Positions 42,796-51,540 of a stretch of DNA of 64,000 bases are shown one piece after another. The notes under the pieces were generated by a model. That model searched no databases and was not told the DNA's origin. It saw only the letters and a program-made list of their open reading frames with translations. Within the stretch, counting starts at the first letter, position 1; every line of letters begins with the position of its first letter. Made by a program: the position numbers and the translations under genes. Location: the NCBI GenBank assembly GCA_054600435.1, contig BAAIJX010000006.1, forward strand, positions 310,001-374,000. Direction: 5' to 3'. Origin of the DNA: Neophaeotheca triangularis. Taxonomy: Eukaryota.

Positions 42796-43938
42796 ATGCA
42801 CTCCATCCCCCCACCCCACCCAAACCTTCCCGCAAACCCCCCTCCCGCCCTCCCAACCCTAGCAACCCTAACCACGCACCTCCAAACCCACCTCCCCTGG
42901 CCCCCTCATCCCCGCGAAGTCCCCTACAACTACCACACCCCCCGTCCCCCGCTCCCCCCCTCAACCCCCATCCCCAAACTCCTCCTCAGCCTCACCCCGA
43001 CCCGGACCCTCTACAAAACCCCCCAAACCACTCGATCTCCAACTCTGATCTTCCTCCACCGCCCCTGGACCCTCGACCGCAAAGCCCTTCCCCAAGCCAC
43101 CACGGTCCTGGCCAGCCACAAAGGCTTCGACGAGCTCTTGACCGTCGGCTGGAATCTCGCGCTCGCTGGGAAGCTAGGAGTGGGAGTTGGGGACGGGGGC
43201 GAGGGGCTTGAGAGCGGTGAAGGGGTGATGGCCGGGAGGGCGGTTTGCGTGAGGGGCTACAAGGGGGAAGCGGGGAGGAGGGTTGGGCTTGTGGGGTTGT
43301 TGGAGGGGGGGAGGGGGGTCGTTGCGCGAGAGGTGCTGGAGAGGGTGAGGGGGGAGTTTGGGGCGTTGGAGGGGGTTTGGGGGTTTGGGCCGCTGGAGGG
43401 GGCTTGGGGGTTTGAGGGTGAGGGACTGGGTTTAGGAGACGATGGGCGTGAGGGTGGCGTGCCGTTGCCTGGTACTGCGTTTCAAGATCACGGCGGCGGG
43501 GCCGACGACCTTGTCAAGGTAGTCGCGGTTATGAACGCTTTTCGCCTCGAAGAGGTCGAGCGGGTTGCTGCCGCCGCTCGCCAGCTTCAAACTCTCGCCA
43601 CTCCTTCGGAGGTATCGTCCGAGGTCAAGTGCACCGAGGTTCTCTACCTCACTGGCGCCGTCCGCGAGCCGGGTTTGGAGGCCGCTCGTGCTAAGGGTAT
43701 GCGCGTTATATGTGTCGGTCATCGGGCGTGCGAGGAATGGGGGATTCGGTATCTAGCGGAGGTGGCTAGGAGGGAGTTTCCTTTGTTGGACGTTGAGGTG
43801 CTTCTTGAGGAGGAGGAGGAGGAGGAACTGAGAGCTAAAGCGGTTAAAGTGCAGGGGGAGAATGCTGGTGATGGGCGGGGATCGAAGAGGAAGGTGGCGA
43901 CGTCCCGAGGCGACGGTGTTGCTGGCGCTGGTATCTGA
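42796..43938 (+). CDS. NIF3/NGG1-interacting-factor-like protein, divergent fungal form
   Basis: FLHRPWTLDR, ASHKGFDELLTVGWN, YLTGAVRE and VGHRACEEWG correspond to NIF3-type metal-binding His/Glu motifs. Confidence 0.72.
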   Translation: MHSIPPPHPNLPANPPPALPTLATLTTHLQTHLPWPPHPREVPYNYHTPRPPLPPSTPIPKLLLSLTPTRTLYKTPQTTRSPTLIFLHRPWTLDRKALPQATTVLASHKGFDELLTVGWNLALAGKLGVGVGDGGEGLESGEGVMAGRAVCVRGYKGEAGRRVGLVGLLEGGRGVVAREVLERVRGEFGALEGVWGFGPLEGAWGFEGEGLGLGDDGREGGVPLPGTAFQDHGGGADDLVKVVAVMNAFRLEEVERVAAAARQLQTLATPSEVSSEVKCTEVLYLTGAVREPGLEAARAKGMRVICVGHRACEEWGIRYLAEVARREFPLLDVEVLLEEEEEEELRAKAVKVQGENAGDGRGSKRKVATSRGDGVAGAGI

Positions 43939-44322
43939 GTTCGAGGGGAAGTGCTGCTCGACTGATAAATTCAACTGGCTTCTATTTCATGTATGCCGAT
44001 TGCGAAAGAAAAGTGGCCATGATAGTAAGCTGTAGCGGCGTGTGCTACTCCTTCCAAGCATGTCAATTGGATCAAGCCACCCAATCGGCCTATTAATCTG
44101 TCTACTGAGGTTTGTACGGAAGCAGCCAGAACAGTCAGGTAGTGAGTCGTACGACAAGGAAGAAACAAGCACAAAAGTTGGCAGAGAATTTGTCAATTGT
44201 GGTGCTACGTAAAAACGTTGCACCTAATGACTATCTACTGCGAATTTCGCACAAAAACAGTTGGTATCGCCCTCCATCGAACTCCTCCACAACGATGTCC
44301 ACCCAGCTACATAAGCAAGCAA

Positions 44323-45885
44323 TCACTTCTGGTGAACAGCAGAGCTGTTACCATTAGTGGCATTGCGAGCAGCATTGGCGGCATCGATGTCGAAACCGCA
44401 AGAAGATTCCGCAGCACCGCAAAAGCCGAAAGAGTCGGGAAGTCCACCTCCCCCTCTAACAGGCTTGGGCGCAGGTGGTGGGGTGAAGACAGCGGGAGAC
44501 CTTCTAGTGGTTCGACCTAGAACTGAAAGAAGTTGAGCTAGCTGTGGATTAGGATTGCGTTTGCTAAGAGCAACATACGTCGAAGTCACGAAGGTCGTGG
44601 CCGTAGGAGTCGTAGCAGCGATGGTGCGGACAATGCCTTCACCCTCGCCGTCGATGCCGGCGCAGGAAGCACCCTTGGCGCCTGGTAGAAGGAGGTTAGC
44701 ATGACGTTTGATCGAATGGTAGAGTGAGGTTGGTGACGTACCGCAGAAGCCGAATGTCGCGACCTGGTCCGCCTCCTTCTTGTCGAGGGGCTTGGGAACA
44801 GCAGCGGTCTGGACGGGGCGTTTGGCGTCGGAGTTGTCGATGCCAGCACCAACGCCGGCGCCGGCGCAGGAGGCACCTGGGGCACCTGTGTTGGATGACG
44901 TTAGAGAGAAGTCTTTGTCTGTGGTAGAGGATGGGTACGTACCGCAGAAGCCGAAACGAGGAGGGAGGGCAGAGCGTGCCTCAGTCAAAGAACGACGGCA
45001 ACGAGCGTCGGTCCAGGCCTTGGTGAAACGGGCGCACCAGCCGTACTGGGGTACAGCGTCGGCGGATCGTTTATCGTTGGCGGACAGGCGGCAACGAGTG
45101 TCGGTCCACGCCCTGGAGAAGCGAGCGCACCAGCCGTATTGAGGTACAGCCTCAGCGGAGCGTGCGTCGATGGACCTGCGGCAACGAGAGTCGGTCCAGG
45201 CCTTGGTGAAGCGGGCGCACCAGCCTTCACCAAACTGAGCCTTGGCCTCAGGAGAGCGCTTGTCGACGACATCCGGGAAAGAGACAGGAGAGCGCTTGAA
45301 GGCCGCAGCTACGTCCTTGGCTTCGAAAAGGGCCTCGGGCTCGGAAACCGGGAGGCAATTCTCGCCAGTCTCGTAGCACTGGTCGGCGCCATCCATGACA
45401 CGGCGGGCGACGAGTGCGGACGTGGTGGCGATGTCCTGGTCGAGTTCGGTGGAACGCTCGCCCTCAAAGGTAGCGGCATGGTCTTCACAAGCCATCTCCG
45501 CATCAAGAGGGGTACGATCACCGGCAAGACCACAGACCTCGTCGAGGCAAGTGGTCAAGAGCTGGTAAAAGTCAGTACAGCTCTTCTGTTGTGAAGTGAG
45601 GTGAAGGAAAGCTACTTACAGAGTAGACCTGAGGGTCTGGGCAGATACAGGCCTTAGTGAGGCCACAGTTGGCGACGTCGCCAACCGTGGTCCAGCAGTG
45701 CTCGACACAGCCTGGCAAGAAAGTTAGTAAGAATGGTTGAGGAGAAGAGGTGAGGTGAGGTGAGGTTATTGCTTACTTGCGACAGCCATGTCGGTGGTGC
45801 TGGCCGCCACACCTGTGAAGGTGGTGACGGCAAGGAGCTGCAACATGGCAAGCATGTGCAACGCCTTGGAGGTGAAGCCCATCAT
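44323..45885 (-). CDS. Secreted CFEM-domain, Kex2-processed repeat peptide precursor (alpha-pheromone-precursor-like polyprotein)
   Basis: Signal peptide MMGFTSKALHMLAMLQLLAVTTFTGVAA; introns 45712-45776, 45562-45619, 44886-44942 and 44682-44741, all GT..CT(A/G)AC..AG. 8-Cys module C-x3-C-x9-C-x5-C-x-C-x12-C-x4-C-x15-C; KR/RR sites followed by X-A/X-P dipeptides; two peptide repeat families. Confidence 0.8.
44990..45261 (-). repeat. Three coding tandem repeats of about 93 bp (GWCARFxxAWTDxRC peptides)
   Basis: Near-identical units such as GGCTGGTGCGCCCGCTTCACCAAGGCCTGGACCGAC on the minus strand. Confidence 0.92.
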
Positions 45886-46474
45886 GGCGCTGATGGTGGA
45901 CTTGGTAGTGTTGGTAATCGGTTGGTATACTAGTGAAGGGTGTTGACAATAGTATGGGCGAAGGAGAGAGTATTGTGTCGTTCGTATTGTCGAAGAGGAA
46001 GAAAGGAAGAGGAACAAAGTTGGAGGGGCGGCCAAAGTTATAGTTGTGAGATTAGGGCGCTCGGACCTGGTTGCGCTGTCATGCAGCCAAGGCTGAGGGC
46101 AGGAAGGTACGGTTAGATGAGGCAGGAGCGGGCCTTGGTGCAGACGCGGCCTGCGGCGGTGACGTCGGTAGGGATGGGCGACGAGGTAGAGGTGAAGGCA
46201 GTGAAGTGAAGTGAAGTGAGGATCGCAGGAAACCACCATAAAGACTTTCTGGGGAAGATACGAGAGTCAGCTATATACGAACAGACAAACAGTCCTACAA
46301 GCAACTACAGCGTTTAGAGTAAAGCATGGCTGATGAGGTATTCGTGAGAAGCTGCGGTCTTGTCGGTGCCGGCAGGGAGTGACACTATTGCTGGGCTTAC
46401 GCCTTCTATCGATTTTGCCCATTGGCCTACAAAACATGTGCTGCGCGAACGCTTCTCGAAAGCTTTTAGTGGTA

Positions 46475-47434
46475 TCAAAAGAACAGCAAGTCAATCCTCT
46501 TGTCATCCGCAGCACCATATCGTTCCTTGAACTCTGGCTTGCTCAGCAAAGTCAAAAGCGGCACCTGGATCTCCTTCATATCGAGTATGCCACGCTTCTT
46601 CTGGTCAATATGCGAAGCATCCACGACAATTCTCTCCAACTTTGAAGCGGAGAGTGCACCTGGTAACGTCAGCAACCTGTCGTTCGGCCACCAATTATAG
46701 TTGGAACTCACCAGCATCCAGCAAATCGAGCAGCCTCTGCGGAGTTCCAACACCAATTCCCATCCTCGTCTTCTTCGCCATCTCTGTAGCCTCCTTCAGC
46801 TTGATATGCTTGGCAAAAAGCTTCGCCACCATCGACTCCTTAGTCTGGTATTGTCGCAGTGCCCTCGTCAAATCTGCGGCGCGAATGCCCGAAGGGGCTA
46901 TAACAAGCGTGTGCGGATGACCCTTCTCCTCGGCCGCGTGGATGAGTTTCTGCTCTCCTTTCTTTTTGCGACGGGGGCCGGCGAACTTTTGCACAAAGTC
47001 GGCGAGATCCTGCGTAGCTCGGGACTTCTCATAGCGGGAGGTGTTGATGATGGCTTTCTCTAAATTCGAGAAGTTAGAGCAAAGTAATGCGGAAGCACGA
47101 AAGAGGTCCTATAAATACCAGGTATGTACAAATCTTCAATTTCCACCATACTAAGATCCGGCAGGTGTCTTCTCGTTCGCTGGGCGACGTGGTCGGCCAT
47201 CAACTTGCTATCCATGTGCGCGATCGCATGGTTGACTCCTGCCTCCACATCCAGTGCCTCATCATCAATATCCTTTGGCTTCTTCGTCTGTTTCTGCTTC
47301 TTCGCAGCTCTTTTGCTCGTTGGCTTCGAATCGTCTTCCCGCTTTCGCTTGGTGGATGTCGTTTCCGGGGAAGGAGATGGGGAGATTTTCTCGATCAGCG
47401 GAACACCGCCTTGCCCGTCTTCTGACTCGGACAT
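46475..47434 (-). CDS. CMS1: Cms1 family 90S pre-ribosome-associated protein
   Basis: GVNHAIAHMD, GHPHTLVIAPSGIRAADLTRAL, AKLFAKHIKL, GVGTPQRL and RIVVDASHIDQKKRGILDM; two introns (about 47060-47118 and 46660-46711). Confidence 0.9.
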
Positions 47435-47671: not shown

Positions 47672-48709
47672 ATGGAACGCACATATCAAGCCGCCAGAGC
47701 GTTTGCTCGACCTAGGTCGACAACACAAACAGCCTCAAACCCGCAATGGACCTGCTCTCGTTGCCTCCACCTCCAACGGCAATCCCGCCAAACACTCCAC
47801 CAAAGACGGCAGCCCAACATCCTCTCCCAAACTTCCCGCCGCCACGCCTCCGACCAACCCGGAGACGCCTCAGGTTTCCGCAGCATTGTCGATAACCCCC
47901 CTACTCCCCTCCGCGCAAACCGCAAACACAACAAACTCGGCTTAGCAATACTAGCAGCAATACCCATAACCTCCTTCTTCCTCGGATGCTGGCAAGTCCA
48001 ACGTCTAGGCTGGAAGACCGACCTCATAGCCCGGTTCGAAGACAGACTGATACGGGACCCTCTCCCCCTGCCACCACAAATCGACCCCACGGCCGTTGGC
48101 GAGTTCGACTACCGCCGAGTCTACGCCAGAGGGATCCTTCGACACGACCAAGAGATGCTCATCGGACCACGCTTACACGACGGCAAAGATGGATACCTAG
48201 TCATCACACCCCTAGACCGCAGCGCCGAGTACCCCGACTTCCCGAAAAGCGAAGCAACCGTGCTCGTCAACCGCGGCTGGATCTCTAAAGAAAAAGCCGC
48301 GCAATCTGCTCGCCCGACCAGCTTACCCACAGGTCCAGTGACGGTGCAAGGTCTCCTTCGCTCGCCGTGGAAGAAGAACATGTTCACGCCTTCCAACTCT
48401 CCGCAACAGAACATCTGGCATTTCCCCGACGTCTACGAAATGGCGGCGCATACGGGCTCGCAGCCTGTGTGGATCGAAGCTACAATGCCTCCAGATCTGT
48501 TGACGGCGTATGACCGCGAGTCAAAGGGGTTACCGATTGGGAGGCCTGCGGAGGTCAATTTGCGGAACAATCATGCGCAGTACATTGCTACGTGGTTTGC
48601 GCTTTCGGCTGCGACGACGGTCATGATGTGGATGATTCTGCGGCAGCCGAGGAGTGGGACGCAGGGTTTGAGGGCTGGTGGCAGGGCTAGGCGGAGTAGG
48701 GAGTGGTAG
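47672..48709 (+). CDS. SHY1: SURF1/Shy1 cytochrome c oxidase assembly factor
   Basis: Arg/Ser/Gln-rich mitochondrial presequence; FLGCWQVQRLGWK, FDYRRV, GYLVITPL, VLVNRGWI and NLRNNHAQYIATWF. Confidence 0.92.
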   Translation: MERTYQAARAFARPRSTTQTASNPQWTCSRCLHLQRQSRQTLHQRRQPNILSQTSRRHASDQPGDASGFRSIVDNPPTPLRANRKHNKLGLAILAAIPITSFFLGCWQVQRLGWKTDLIARFEDRLIRDPLPLPPQIDPTAVGEFDYRRVYARGILRHDQEMLIGPRLHDGKDGYLVITPLDRSAEYPDFPKSEATVLVNRGWISKEKAAQSARPTSLPTGPVTVQGLLRSPWKKNMFTPSNSPQQNIWHFPDVYEMAAHTGSQPVWIEATMPPDLLTAYDRESKGLPIGRPAEVNLRNNHAQYIATWFALSAATTVMMWMILRQPRSGTQGLRAGGRARRSREW

Positions 48710-49349: not shown

Positions 49350-50945
49350 TCAACCTCGCTTGTCTTTCTTATCCTCATCCCTACTCTCAAAATCTAAAGA
49401 ATTCCCATTGTAAAACTCAGCCTCACCCTTCTTGGCAGCTTCCGCCCTCTGATCCGCAAGCGTCTTAACCCTCACCTTCCCCTTGGGCGCCGACTCTTCC
49501 TCTGCCATAGCCGCGCCCTCAGCATTACTATCATCCCTCTCATCCCCCGTGCCACCAATATAAGGCCCCGAGCCCTCCGTCGCACCCGCACCCTCCCCAC
49601 CACGCCCATAACCCGTCACAGCCCCGAACACCGAAGAAGCCAGCTCCCAAACCCCACCCACCAGCCCCGTCCCCGCCCCTAGCGCTCTCGAAACCACACC
49701 CTCGCCCCCTGCTCCCGCGTACGCTTCCGTGTACCCCGCCACCGGCACCAACACCAACGTCGCCGACGGACACAAGCCCAGCTCCAGCAAGCTGCGGTGT
49801 TCGTCGCTCATCTCGATACTGCGGGAAGGCTGGGGAGCGAGAATCTGTCTGAAAGTAAAAGGGATTTCGGCGACATTGCCGGCTTCGGGAGGGGCTTGGG
49901 CGGAGATGTGGGCGCGGACGCTCGAGGCGAGGGTGTCTGTGGGTGAGAAGCGGGATTTGAGGGAGGAGCCGTCGAAGAGGCGGATTTGGAGGGCGCAGAC
50001 GCTGCCGAGGCCGCGGGTTGAGGGACGGGAGGGGCGGGAGAAGGGGCCTTGAGGGCTGGTTGGGTTCGAGGCGGCGGTAGTGTTTGTGGGGGTTTCGGCG
50101 CTTTCTTTGCGCGCTTGTTCGCGGGCGCGCCGGGTGAGTTTGTCGTTTTCGATTTGGGCTAGGATGCGTTCGCGTTCGGATTTGGCTTCGTCGTTGCGTT
50201 TCTTTTGTTGCCGGATCCAGTCAGTGCGGGCTTTGGCGCGGTCGGGGGGGTTTGAGGAGGAGGCGGGTTGTTTGCCTTTGCCTTTTTCGGTGGGTGTGGA
50301 GGTGGATGTTGCTAGGGCTTCTTGTTCTTCTTTCTGCCGCCGCTTTGTGCGTTCTTTTCGCTCTGCTGCTTCCGCTTCTAATCGTTTTTGGCGCTCGGCT
50401 TCGAGTCGTTGGGCGCGGTCTGGGAACATTGATTGCAGATTGCAGGACTGGTCTTGAGATGTGGGTGTAGATGTGTTCGCTTGAATTGATGGTGATACTG
50501 CTGCGCCCCCTAATGGATCTTGGCTGACGGCGATGTTGGCTTGAGAGTCTGACAGTATCTCCCCTTGTCCTTCCAAAGTACTCTCAGCATCCGCCCCAAG
50601 ACCCACAGCATTCAACAGCCGCTCCCTGAATTCATCCTCCCCTGTGTTGCGCTCCAGTTGCGCCAGTATCTGTCCATTCCTGATAATCACCAACGTCGGT
50701 GCGGCACTGATGGAACAGAAAGCCGAGAGGAACCCGGCCTCTTGAGAGCCAAACTCGATCCGTAGCAACACGGCCTTGTCTTTGATCATGTCTCCCAGCC
50801 CACCTTCCACAAGCCACTGCTCTTCCCAGAGCTTTGAGGTCTCATCGTCCTCCTGACGGACGAAGCAGGCTACGAGCTTCTGCTGCTGAATGGCTAGAGC
50901 GATGCCTGATTGGAGGTCACCGGGGTGGAAGATGGAATCAGACAT
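49350..50945 (-). CDS. UBX-domain Cdc48/p97 cofactor (Ubx7/UBXN4-like)
   Basis: N-terminal thioredoxin-like region (GSQEAGFLSAFC...PTLVII), coiled coil, UBX (LQIRLFDGSSL...LGLCPSATLVL) and C-terminal FYNGNSLDFE. Confidence 0.88.
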   Translation of the reverse strand: MSDSIFHPGDLQSGIALAIQQQKLVACFVRQEDDETSKLWEEQWLVEGGLGDMIKDKAVLLRIEFGSQEAGFLSAFCSISAAPTLVIIRNGQILAQLERNTGEDEFRERLLNAVGLGADAESTLEGQGEILSDSQANIAVSQDPLGGAAVSPSIQANTSTPTSQDQSCNLQSMFPDRAQRLEAERQKRLEAEAAERKERTKRRQKEEQEALATSTSTPTEKGKGKQPASSSNPPDRAKARTDWIRQQKKRNDEAKSERERILAQIENDKLTRRAREQARKESAETPTNTTAASNPTSPQGPFSRPSRPSTRGLGSVCALQIRLFDGSSLKSRFSPTDTLASSVRAHISAQAPPEAGNVAEIPFTFRQILAPQPSRSIEMSDEHRSLLELGLCPSATLVLVPVAGYTEAYAGAGGEGVVSRALGAGTGLVGGVWELASSVFGAVTGYGRGGEGAGATEGSGPYIGGTGDERDDSNAEGAAMAEEESAPKGKVRVKTLADQRAEAAKKGEAEFYNGNSLDFESRDEDKKDKRG

Positions 50946-51540
50946 GCTTGTCGCGGGTGTCAAGTTAGTTTGATATTGATTGAAAGACGTTCACGGGTAC
51001 GTACGCGATCTCATCAGTCAGCACCACCTTGACCACCTTAGCTTAGGTTCACATGTTGCTGTATCCGTCCCAATGCGGTCTAGTCGGTGTCTAAGGACCC
51101 TGGCTGGAAATGAAAATAGAATAACGGAACCCACCTGCAGCATAACTTAGGTAAGGTTATTATTACATCAGACACGTAACTTACGGTATTAAGGTACCTC
51201 AGGTGGTCGCAGTATTCTTGTCACAATCTCTACACGGCTCACATCATACCTACATAAGTACATTAGAACACAGGCAAAAAAAAAGAAAATCACTCGCATC
51301 CAAGAGACAGACTCTGAAGCGTTCAAGTTCATGTTCGAGAGACCCCCCGACGTAAGGTATCGTCAGCCAACGAAGCATCATCATCGTCGCCACGATCAAG
51401 ACACCCGGACAGCTGACGACAGCCCCGTCGGCTTAGCTCTTAGCATACGACACGAACAAACATTTATCGACAAGATCCATTGTCTATCCGCGTGTCCAAG
51501 GAGAGTCACTACTACTGTCTTGCTCTTTGTTTGCCTACAT

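What the first reader, a model, noticed from the sequence alone, without database searches (positions are those of the whole stretch)
44990..45261. Peptide family A: three QxGWCARF(T/S)(K/R)AWTDxRC units with in-register dipeptidyl-peptidase spacers
Seen: KR-SP-EA-KA-QFGEGWCARFTKAWTDSRC-RR, AR-SA-EA-VP-QYGWCARFSRAWTDTRC-RL and KR-SA-DA-VP-QYGWCARFTKAWTDARC-RR. Each spacer is exactly three X-A/X-P dipeptides that stop at Gln. Known: Ste13 removes X-A/X-P dipeptides, Kex1 trims C-terminal basic residues, and N-terminal Gln can cyclise to pyroglutamate; Neurospora-type alpha-pheromones begin QWC. Inference: mature 17-19-mers with an 11-residue disulfide loop, aromatic and mildly cationic. The loop is longer than the 6-residue pheromone loop, so these may be a new GPCR ligand or antimicrobial peptide. 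Copy 2 has only monobasic flanks and may be processed differently.
Basis: partly seen in the sequence, partly recalled or inferred. Interest (0 to 1): 0.72.

Follow-up and report, generated by a model that had tools for sequence, protein, structure and literature searches.

The report
Chimeric fungal pheromone-like peptide precursor
A salt-tolerant black yeast seems to have turned an ordinary surface-protein gene into a secreted precursor that carries three new ring-shaped peptides beside copies of its own mating-pheromone core, probably a signal used outside mating, though nothing has been tested in the lab.

Summary
The three units are real and lie in exon 3 of a five-exon, 440-aa secreted-protein gene (minus strand, 45885-44323; record labelled Neophaeotheca triangularis). 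Kex2/Ste13 processing to 17-19-mers with an 11-residue Cys loop is well supported by anatomy, but unproven. Family A has no detectable relative. It is not this fungus's alpha-pheromone: a canonical intronless ppg1 lies on another contig, with six 6-residue-loop cores and five MAT1-1-1 consensus sites; the window gene has none of these sites. The surprise is the gene's origin. Its N-terminus is a CFEM-type domain orthologous, by synteny and two shared intron positions, to a plain CFEM gene that follows CMS1 in other fungi and lacks such repeats. Downstream of family A it carries two 11-residue cores identical to the ppg1 cores (silent changes only), split by introns and lacking C-terminal basic sites. 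Best reading: a lineage-specific chimera, pheromone-type modules grafted onto a CFEM gene, releasing pyroGlu-capped looped peptides as mating-type-independent signals. An antimicrobial role is less likely (net charge +1/+2). No expression, orthologue or binding data. New variant of a known kind (KEP).

The parts
44323..45885 (-). Whole gene, 5 exons (45885-45777, 45711-45620, 45561-44943, 44885-44742, 44681-44323), 440 aa
   Evidence: My splice model has the length of, and agrees with, the NCBI model P0002 / GAB7359668.1; both are predictions, no transcript seen
45799..45885 (-). Probable signal peptide (end approximate)
   Evidence: Hydropathy peak 2.05 at residues 11-21; no dedicated predictor run
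45712..45776 (-). Intron 1 (65 nt), position shared with the syntenic CFEM genes
   Evidence: GTAAGC...CTAAC...CAG; retention stops the frame at 39 aa; acceptor 2 nt before the first Cys codon, as in 5 of 6 loci examined
45487..45709 (-). CFEM-type 8-Cys domain (residues 38-92, spans intron 2), lacking the haem-ligand Asp
   Evidence: Pfam PF05730 E 0.004, 17.6 bits, below the cut-off of 22; Atlas lead 0.79; Cys spacing; syntenic orthologues
45562..45619 (-). Intron 2 (58 nt), position shared with the syntenic CFEM genes
   Evidence: Donor 21 nt after the C-x-C pair, phase 0, as in 5 of 6 loci examined; retention stops the frame at 82 aa
45400..45408 (-). Dibasic site after the CFEM domain (inherited: orthologues have LRKR/LRRR at a like distance)
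45355..45378 (-). Acidic C-x6-C motif resembling the conserved ECFxEGxEC spacer motif of ppg1 precursors
   Evidence: Resemblance by eye; motif seen in 9 of 30 ppg1-family proteins, but my regex did not match P0002 and the HMM score here was not significant
45238..45261 (-). Family A spacer 1: KR + three X-A/X-P dipeptides
45181..45237 (-). Family A peptide 1 (19 aa, C-x11-C), followed by RR
   Evidence: calculated monoisotopic mass with disulfide and pyroGlu 2228.95 Da
45142..45165 (-). Family A spacer 2: single Arg + three dipeptides
45091..45141 (-). Family A peptide 2 (17 aa), followed by RL; next dibasic site 6 residues on
   Evidence: calculated mass 2086.89 Da
45049..45072 (-). Family A spacer 3: KR + three dipeptides
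44998..45048 (-). Family A peptide 3 (17 aa), followed by RR
   Evidence: calculated mass 2042.89 Da
44863..44958 (-). Pheromone core B1 (C-x6-C), identical over 11 residues to ppg1 repeat 1; split by intron 3 (44942-44886, 57 nt, in frame, no stop)
   Evidence: 4 silent, 0 replacement differences
44659..44757 (-). Pheromone core B2, identical over 11 residues to 4 of the 6 ppg1 repeats; split at the same codon by intron 4 (44741-44682, 60 nt, in frame, no stop)
   Evidence: 2-6 silent, 0 replacement differences
44578..44625 (-). Thr-rich stretch, perhaps a remnant of the ancestral S/T/P stalk
   Evidence: sequence; remnant status inferred
44395..44427 (-). Degenerate pheromone-like core B3 (4 replacements against every ppg1 repeat), no intron
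45886..46885 (-). Upstream kilobase: no match to the MAT1-1-1 consensus YYATTGA[GTC]; one near-match (CTATTGT) at -67
46337..47434 (-). Upstream neighbour CMS1 (synteny anchor; low end approximate)
   Evidence: Pfam PF14617; tblastn pieces

Best explanation
Family A is the main product of a lineage-specific, secreted multi-peptide precursor (a KEP) that arose when alpha-pheromone-type modules were grafted onto a resident CFEM gene behind its inherited dibasic site. In the Golgi, Kex2 cuts after the basic sites, Kex1 trims the Arg residues, Ste13 removes three dipeptides and stops at Gln, Gln cyclises, and the two Cys close an 11-residue loop. The 17-19-mers are secreted with a free CFEM domain and C-terminally extended pheromone-core fragments. 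I think they most likely act as extracellular signals on a fungal GPCR (Ste2 as modulator or partial ligand, or another receptor), outside MAT1-1-1 control, for vegetative or autocrine communication. Shown: sequence anatomy, chimeric origin, identity of B cores with ppg1, absence of consensus MAT1-1-1 sites. Inferred: expression, processing (about 0.8), disulfide, pyroGlu, receptor and role (about 0.55).
For: In-register spacers ending at Gln in 3 of 3 units; cores better kept than spacers. Kexin-type and DPPIV-type genes present. The only relative found in the near-length search of 5.8 billion proteins is this genome's own ppg1, with B cores identical bar silent changes while 8-residue flanks share 0-2 residues. 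Family A keeps the G-aromatic-C head of Capnodiales-type pheromones (G at -2 in 26 and F/W at -1 in 29 of 53 distinct cores), seen before only 3 of 1465 background Cys (one event, noticed after looking). A plain CFEM gene with the same two intron positions follows CMS1 in 11 of 25 relatives' loci, and no KEP-like repeat was found in any of the 80 loci. MAT1-1-1 consensus sites within 1 kb: ppg1 5, STE3 5, STE2 0, this gene 0; background 0.23 per kb (consensus from PMC8022922, passages). The isolate looks MAT1-2 and has one STE2. Precedents: autocrine pheromone signalling in Fusarium (PMC13097639, abstract); Ste13-trimmed, pyroGlu KEP peptides detected by MS (PMC9769878, passages).
Against: Single genome, with no orthologue of family A, so conservation cannot be tested. 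Among the three cores replacement changes (1-3 per pair) are as many as silent ones (1-3), so purifying selection on family A is not shown. A profile of 12 ppg1 relatives does not score the family-A region significantly (-1.0 bits, E 0.05), so descent from a pheromone repeat is only suggested. Known alpha-pheromones are 9-14 aa (PMC6265332, passage), so a 17-19-mer may not fit Ste2. B cores lack C-terminal basic sites, so they are poor agonist candidates if the C-terminus must reach the pocket floor (PMC12582325, passage). 14 of 25 CMS1 loci have no CFEM neighbour, including four where CMS1 directly follows SHY1. Lack of consensus sites does not prove lack of MAT control, and one near-match lies at -67.
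Confidence: 0.5

Rival explanations
1. Family A peptides are antimicrobial or antagonistic peptides secreted against competitors, using pheromone-type processing only as an export route.
For: Disulfide-looped, Trp/Arg/Phe-rich, N-terminally blockable; helical hydrophobic moment 0.54-0.62. A Kex2-cleaved fungal antimicrobial peptide, copsin, is mentioned in PMC9769878 (passage).
Against: Net side-chain charge only +1 to +2 with a conserved Asp, lower than the species' own pheromones (+3 to +7). The moment is not clearly above shuffles (p about 0.06). It does not explain the pheromone cores in the same precursor.
Confidence: 0.15
2. The gene is a second alpha-pheromone gene for mating (like yeast MFalpha2), and family A is a divergent Ste2 agonist.
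For: B cores identical to ppg1 cores; Ste13 spacers and N-terminal Gln; duplicated alpha-pheromone genes and mixed repeats are known (PMC13037118, passages).
Against: No MAT1-1-1 consensus site against 5 at ppg1 and 5 at STE3; 0 of 30 ppg1-family proteins have an 11-residue unit; the B cores have no C-terminal basic site; a full ppg1 exists elsewhere.
Confidence: 0.13
3. The cassette is a recent, largely neutral or decaying duplication: repeats are alike because they are young, and the peptides do nothing that matters.
For: Orphan; replacement changes about equal silent ones among A cores; B3 is degenerate; the CFEM domain has lost the Asp.
Against: Open frame over 440 codons and four canonical introns; spacers differ in sequence yet keep exact X-A/X-P register in 3 of 3; B1 and B2 show only silent differences from ppg1 although their flanks are unalignable and introns sit inside them.
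Confidence: 0.12
4. The products are surface or matrix peptides (Rep1-like, or disulfide-tethered to the wall or to the CFEM domain) or protease decoys that protect pheromone, rather than receptor ligands.
For: CFEM ancestry; L071's orthologue ends in a hydrophobic GPI-like tail; Thr-rich stretch; extended B fragments could act as decoys.
Against: Precise Ste13 trimming to a defined N-terminus is typical of ligands, and Rep1 lacks the STE13 signature (PMC6339444, passage); no hydrophobic C-terminal tail in P0002.
Confidence: 0.07
5. The gene is a dikaritin (RiPP) precursor whose cores are oxidatively cyclised by a DUF3328 enzyme.
For: KEP architecture; Tyr/Trp in the cores; the genome has 3 UstYa/DUF3328 matches.
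Against: The nearest lies about 133 kb away, whereas such genes lie on average 3 genes from the precursor (PMC7329392, abstract passage); neighbours are housekeeping genes; Ste13 spacers are absent from known dikaritin precursors (PMC6339444, passage).
Confidence: 0.03

Closest known systems
Ascomycete alpha-pheromone precursors, ppg1/ccg-4 family, two-Cys Dothideomycete type (this genome's P0004; P0005-P0033)
   Same: Signal peptide, Kex2 sites, X-A/X-P spacers, two-Cys cores, G-aromatic-C head; B1 and B2 are identical to the species' own cores; a similar acidic C-x6-C spacer motif.
   Different: Family A loop is 11 not 6 residues with no central Gly; N-terminal CFEM domain; four introns, two inside cores (P0004 is intronless); B cores lack C-terminal basic sites; no MAT1-1-1 consensus sites; not the ppg1 orthologue.
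KEX2-processed repeat proteins with STE13 signature (PMC6339444, PMC7329392, PMC9769878)
   Same: Secreted, repeats between basic sites, Ste13 spacers, N-terminal Gln, more than one repeat type (79 of 1193 KEPs had two or three types, PMC6339444 passage). A KEP fused to a folded domain (a glycoside hydrolase) is also on record (PMC9769878, legend passage).
   Different: Disulfide-looped 17-19-mers with no known relative, and a CFEM carrier with the host's own pheromone cores; not found in my paper searches.
CFEM proteins (PF05730), in particular the unnamed CFEM gene next to CMS1 in other ascomycetes (L071, L072, L081, L111, L119)
   Same: Eight-Cys pattern, C-x3-C-W start, both intron positions, position after CMS1 on the same strand, dibasic site about 80 residues from the first Cys.
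   Different: Orthologues continue with an S/T/P-rich tail, without Cys-bridged repeats, and keep Asp/Glu before the C-x-C pair; here that residue is lost and the tail is a peptide cassette.

Membership tests
KEX2-processed repeat protein (KEP) | N-terminal secretion signal | tested here: met
   Hydropathy only; no dedicated predictor
KEX2-processed repeat protein (KEP) | Near-identical repeats between basic cleavage sites | tested here: met
   Three family A units; fragment map
KEX2-processed repeat protein (KEP) | Peptides actually released in vivo | not testable with these tools
   Needs peptidomics
Alpha-pheromone precursor (ppg1/ccg-4) | Kex2 site plus Ste13 dipeptides before each mature peptide | tested here: met
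   3 of 3 family A units; only partly for B cores
Alpha-pheromone precursor (ppg1/ccg-4) | Mature core C-x6-C with central Gly | tested here: not met
   Family A is C-x11-C; 164 of 173 loops in 30 family members have 6 residues. Met by B1 and B2 only.
Alpha-pheromone precursor (ppg1/ccg-4) | Basic site directly after the pheromone core | tested here: not met
   B1, B2 and B3 are followed by 10 or more non-basic residues; met for family A copies 1 and 3
Alpha-pheromone precursor (ppg1/ccg-4) | MAT1-1-1 consensus sites upstream | tested here: not met
   0 sites in 1 kb against 5 for ppg1 and 5 for STE3
Alpha-pheromone precursor (ppg1/ccg-4) | Being the genome's ppg1 orthologue | tested here: not met
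   P0004 on C5 aligns over about its whole length with the family; P0002 scores 12.5 bits against 255 for P0004 on a profile of 12 relatives
Alpha-pheromone precursor (ppg1/ccg-4) | Peptide activates Ste2 | not testable with these tools
   Needs a receptor assay
CFEM domain (PF05730) | Eight Cys at consensus spacing | tested here: met
   Gaps 3, 9, 5, 1, 11, 4, 14; the last is one short of the published 15-16
CFEM domain (PF05730) | Pfam gathering score | tested here: not met
   17.6 bits against 22, E 0.004; orthology to clearer members rests on synteny and introns
CFEM domain (PF05730) | Conserved Asp (haem-iron ligand in Csa2/Rbt5/Pga7) | tested here: not met
   No Asp between Cys52 and Cys58; consensus regex with D fails; role of Asp from PMC13586796 passages
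CFEM domain (PF05730) | Helical-basket fold | tested here: inconclusive
   Single-sequence model, mean pLDDT 41, helical over residues 31-80; fold searches uninformative
Dikaritin RiPP precursor | DUF3328/UstYa gene clustered with the precursor | tested here: not met
   Nearest of 3 matches about 133 kb away

The most novel reading that the evidence does not exclude
A black yeast built a second, mating-type-independent peptide hormone gene by exon recruitment: a CFEM surface-protein gene captured alpha-pheromone modules, kept exact copies of the pheromone core that can be switched off by retaining in-frame introns, and evolved from the same module a new 11-residue-loop ligand. That ligand acts on Ste2 or on an orphan GPCR to control density-dependent growth form, which would make family A a new class of fungal peptide hormone with a traceable birth.
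Probability: 0.2. Interest if true: 0.8.

Novelty: new variant of a known kind. Interest (0 to 1): 0.55.

Why it matters
Most fungal KEP peptides have no known function, and few non-mating peptide-GPCR pairs are known in fungi. This gene gives three defined, synthesisable peptides with calculated masses, a single candidate receptor (Ste2) with its natural ligand as control, and a reconstructable origin from two known gene types. If the peptides signal, it shows how a new peptide hormone can arise from the pheromone module and escape mating-type control. It would also offer a candidate signal for the density-dependent changes of growth form described in marine Dothideomycetes (PMC13064199, introduction; stated there for species such as Hortaea werneckii, not for this gene). 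If they do not, it remains a tidy orphan chimera in one species.

Tried and rejected
Homologue searches for family A: longer-length word search, 1 hit among 1863 candidates, the gene itself; HMMER over 1.84 billion representatives, 2 hits, itself and P0003, an unnamed 1173-aa Cys/Asp repeat protein that I rejected as a low-complexity match; metagenome scan, 93 pattern matches, 0 confirmed; own genome, 1 match, itself; ESM Atlas residues 120-340, no usable hit; PDB sequences, 0. Proteins shorter than 242 aa were covered only, and only for exon 3. Pattern scan for G-x-C-x11-C in the own genome was at control level (540 against 512) and useless. Pattern scan for C-x2-[PA]-G-x2-C gave 152 matches against 92 controls; I read the first 30 loci, and only L024 (ppg1) looked like a precursor. 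The second P0004 match in the genome (L047, E 0.1) showed no pheromone-like unit. Expression: no RNA holder listed; one 268-nt contig from run X1 covers only 44275-44542; neither says anything about expression or splicing. Structure: low-confidence model, no informative fold match in either search. Complex prediction of Ste2 (two exon pieces, no alignment) with residues 226-255 returned no answer, score 0.00, neither support nor evidence against. Papers: 'CFEM + pheromone precursor + Kex2' and 'KEX2-processed + CFEM domain + repeat + peptide' each listed only one mushroom review, not read; one search found nothing. Supplement searches for the core motifs found nothing, but the text held does not appear to include the peptide sequences, so a similar peptide in those KEP catalogues is not excluded. 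The scan's own index held nothing by sequence, place or first word search. A fifth intron at 44578 was considered: two acceptors keep the frame to the same stop, the NCBI model omits it; left open.

Full report
1. Observation. The minus strand at 45261-44992 encodes the three units as described. The mature candidates lie at 45237-45181, 45141-45091 and 45048-44998, with 19, 17 and 17 residues, 11 between the Cys, and side-chain charge +1, +2, +2. The array is the strongest of 12 tandem-repeat rows in the window (period 93, score 311). Cores are 39-43 of 45 nt identical between copies, spacers 12-18 of 24, yet all three spacers keep X-A/X-P register up to Gln. Silent and replacement changes among cores are about equal (1-3 each per pair), so selection on the cores is not shown by this test.

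2. The gene. Four GT-AG introns with branch sites give a 440-aa protein from 45885 to 44323. The first search returned this protein as an NCBI hypothetical protein labelled Neophaeotheca triangularis, a Dothideomycete (P0002, GAB7359668.1). Its order of parts is: hydrophobic signal, eight-Cys domain, dibasic site, acidic C-x6-C motif, three family A units, two C-x6-C cores (B1, B2), a Thr-rich stretch and a degenerate third core. There is no hydrophobic C-terminal tail. Neighbours are NIF3, CMS1 and SURF1/SHY1. The nearest of three DUF3328 matches is about 133 kb away, so this is not a dikaritin cluster.

3. It is not the species' alpha-pheromone gene. The only relative of P0002 among 8000 scored candidates was P0004 from the same species (E 4e-4). 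P0004 is an intronless 301-aa precursor at G000:C5:576399-577301 with six GFCGA[PKR]GASCA cores. Its 29 relatives include records named pheromone or clock-controlled pheromone. In these 30 proteins 164 of 173 counted Cys loops have 6 residues, and none has an 11-residue unit; three longer matches in P0015 run between units and are not loops. Two-Cys alpha-pheromones are described for non-Pleosporales Dothideomycetes (PMC6339444, section 8). The MAT1-1-1 consensus (PMC8022922, passages) occurs 5 times within 1 kb upstream of ppg1, 5 times at STE3, 0 times at STE2 and 0 times at the window gene, against a background of 0.23 per kb. STE3 and STE2 thus serve as positive and negative controls. One near-match sits at -67 of the window gene.

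4. But it carries that pheromone's core. B1 equals ppg1 repeat 1 over 11 residues with 4 silent and no replacement differences. B2 equals four other repeats with 2-6 silent differences each. The eight residues on either side share only 0-2 positions. Both cores are split at the same codon by introns of 57 and 60 nt that are in frame and stop-free and look related to each other (p 0.01 by shuffling; introns 1 and 2 also scored high in that test, so it is soft). Neither core is followed by a basic site, so they would leave as C-terminally extended fragments. That makes them doubtful agonists, as the C-terminal residue of a Fusarium pheromone was modelled at the pocket floor (PMC12582325, passage). 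Family A shares the G-aromatic-C head of these pheromones, found before 3 of 1465 background Cys. A profile of 12 ppg1 relatives, however, scores the family A region at only -1.0 bits. Descent of family A from a pheromone repeat is therefore plausible, not shown.

5. Where the gene came from. The N-terminal domain scores as CFEM below Pfam's cut-off (E 0.004), has CFEM clusters as Atlas leads (0.79), fits the Cys spacing but lacks the consensus Asp. I fetched 80 metagenome loci through SHY1. Window exon 2 hit 10 of them at E 4e-5 to 0.07, each just downstream of CMS1 on the same strand. Of 25 loci that I listed with CMS1 (one more, L098, left out because CMS1 is inverted there), 11 have this CFEM exon; ten built the profile, so only L105 is an independent hit, and the 11 fall into about six distinct sequences. 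Window exon 2 scores E 1e-6 on that profile. In 5 of 6 loci examined both intron positions match the window gene exactly. The four that I could splice have a dibasic site 77-81 residues from the first Cys (82-84 here), followed in three of them by an S/T/P-rich tail, hydrophobic at the end in L071, with no Cys-bridged repeat. No KEP-like piece was flagged in any of the 80 loci. Fourteen CMS1 loci lack the CFEM neighbour, so the linkage is not universal. The simplest reading is that the resident CFEM gene is old and that its tail was replaced by a pheromone-type cassette in this lineage. The date of that event is unknown, since no close relative was available.

6. How it most likely works. The genome has one kexin-type P-domain gene, two DPPIV-type genes, one STE2 and one STE3. 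By the standard pathway (PMC6339444, passages) copies 1 and 3 are released cleanly. Copy 2 needs a single-Arg cut; such sites before X-A/X-P runs occur in 18 of 30 ppg1-family proteins, and single-Arg cleavage, Ste13 trimming and pyroGlu formation were seen by MS for other fungal KEPs (PMC9769878, passages). Without a C-terminal single-Arg cut it keeps six extra residues. An HMG-box gene beside APC5, APN2-like and PH-domain genes, and no alpha-box hit, suggest a MAT1-2 isolate (the flanking-gene argument is from my own knowledge, and one search had no positive control). In such cells ppg1 should be low and Ste2 present, so a MAT-independent source of pheromone-like peptides would allow autocrine signalling, as reported for Fusarium (PMC13097639, abstract). 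I put processing at about 0.8 and the whole signalling reading at 0.5. Antimicrobial action (0.15) is weakened by low charge and an unremarkable hydrophobic moment. A second mating pheromone (0.13), neutral decay (0.12), a surface or decoy role (0.07) and a dikaritin (0.03) are argued in the rivals.

7. Novelty. It works like an alpha-pheromone precursor and is a KEP, but fails three tests of ppg1 membership (loop length, MAT1-1-1 sites, orthology). KEPs with several repeat types, KEPs fused to a folded domain and duplicated pheromone genes are all known (PMC6339444, PMC9769878, PMC13037118; passages). A CFEM carrier with the host's own pheromone cores and a new looped peptide did not appear in two full-text searches; closed-access papers and the peptide tables of the KEP surveys were not seen. 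Non-mating peptide-GPCR pairs in fungi are only now being found (PMC13652807, abstract). Verdict: real feature, new variant of a known kind, function untested, one genome only. Interest 0.55.

Noticed in passing
G000:C5:576399-577301 (L024/L046, P0004): Canonical, unannotated alpha-pheromone precursor of this species: intronless, six strongly cationic 17-23-residue predicted peptides (+3 to +7), five MAT1-1-1 consensus sites upstream.
   Followed up: yes
G000:C8, about 660,235-660,520 (L034, upstream of STE3): Five MAT1-1-1 consensus sites, all in one orientation, plus further CTATTG cores; the motif known from Aspergillus and Penicillium seems kept in this Dothideomycete. The 10-mer CTATTGACAC occurs 27 times in the genome (control 13) and could point to other targets.
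   Followed up: partly
G000:C6:136673-137707 (L128, L138): HMG-box gene beside APC5, APN2-like and PH-domain genes: probable MAT1-2 idiomorph, on the same contig about 217 kb from the finding; the HMG box shows no intron.
   Followed up: partly
window 44942-44886 and 44741-44682: Introns 3 and 4 are multiples of three, stop-free in frame, and split the two pheromone cores at the same codon; retention would disable those cores and leave family A intact.
   Followed up: partly
window 44578-44504 (or 44501): Possible fifth intron (GTATGT donor, in frame, stop-free) that the NCBI model reads as exon; splicing would remove a KR site and a 25-26-residue stretch.
   Followed up: partly
L071, L072, L076, L081, L085, L089, L091, L105, L111, L117, L119, downstream of CMS1: An unnamed conserved CFEM subfamily (C-x3-CW start, LRKR/LRRR site after the domain, S/T/P tail); the L105 copy has in-frame stops and may be broken.
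   Followed up: partly
window 47675-48709 and 49353-50990: SHY1/SURF1 is inverted relative to many related loci, where the 49353-50990 gene lies upstream and divergent and CMS1 downstream.
   Followed up: no
window 42796-43938: NIF3-like gene with a strong switch in GC skew and a 27-nt tandem repeat at 43352-43414; Pfam score just under the cut-off.
   Followed up: no
P0005-P0016: Mostly unnamed ppg1-family precursors with long (about 13-23 aa) cationic N-terminally extended peptides and single-Arg processing sites, longer than the 9-14 aa usually quoted for alpha-pheromones.
   Followed up: partly
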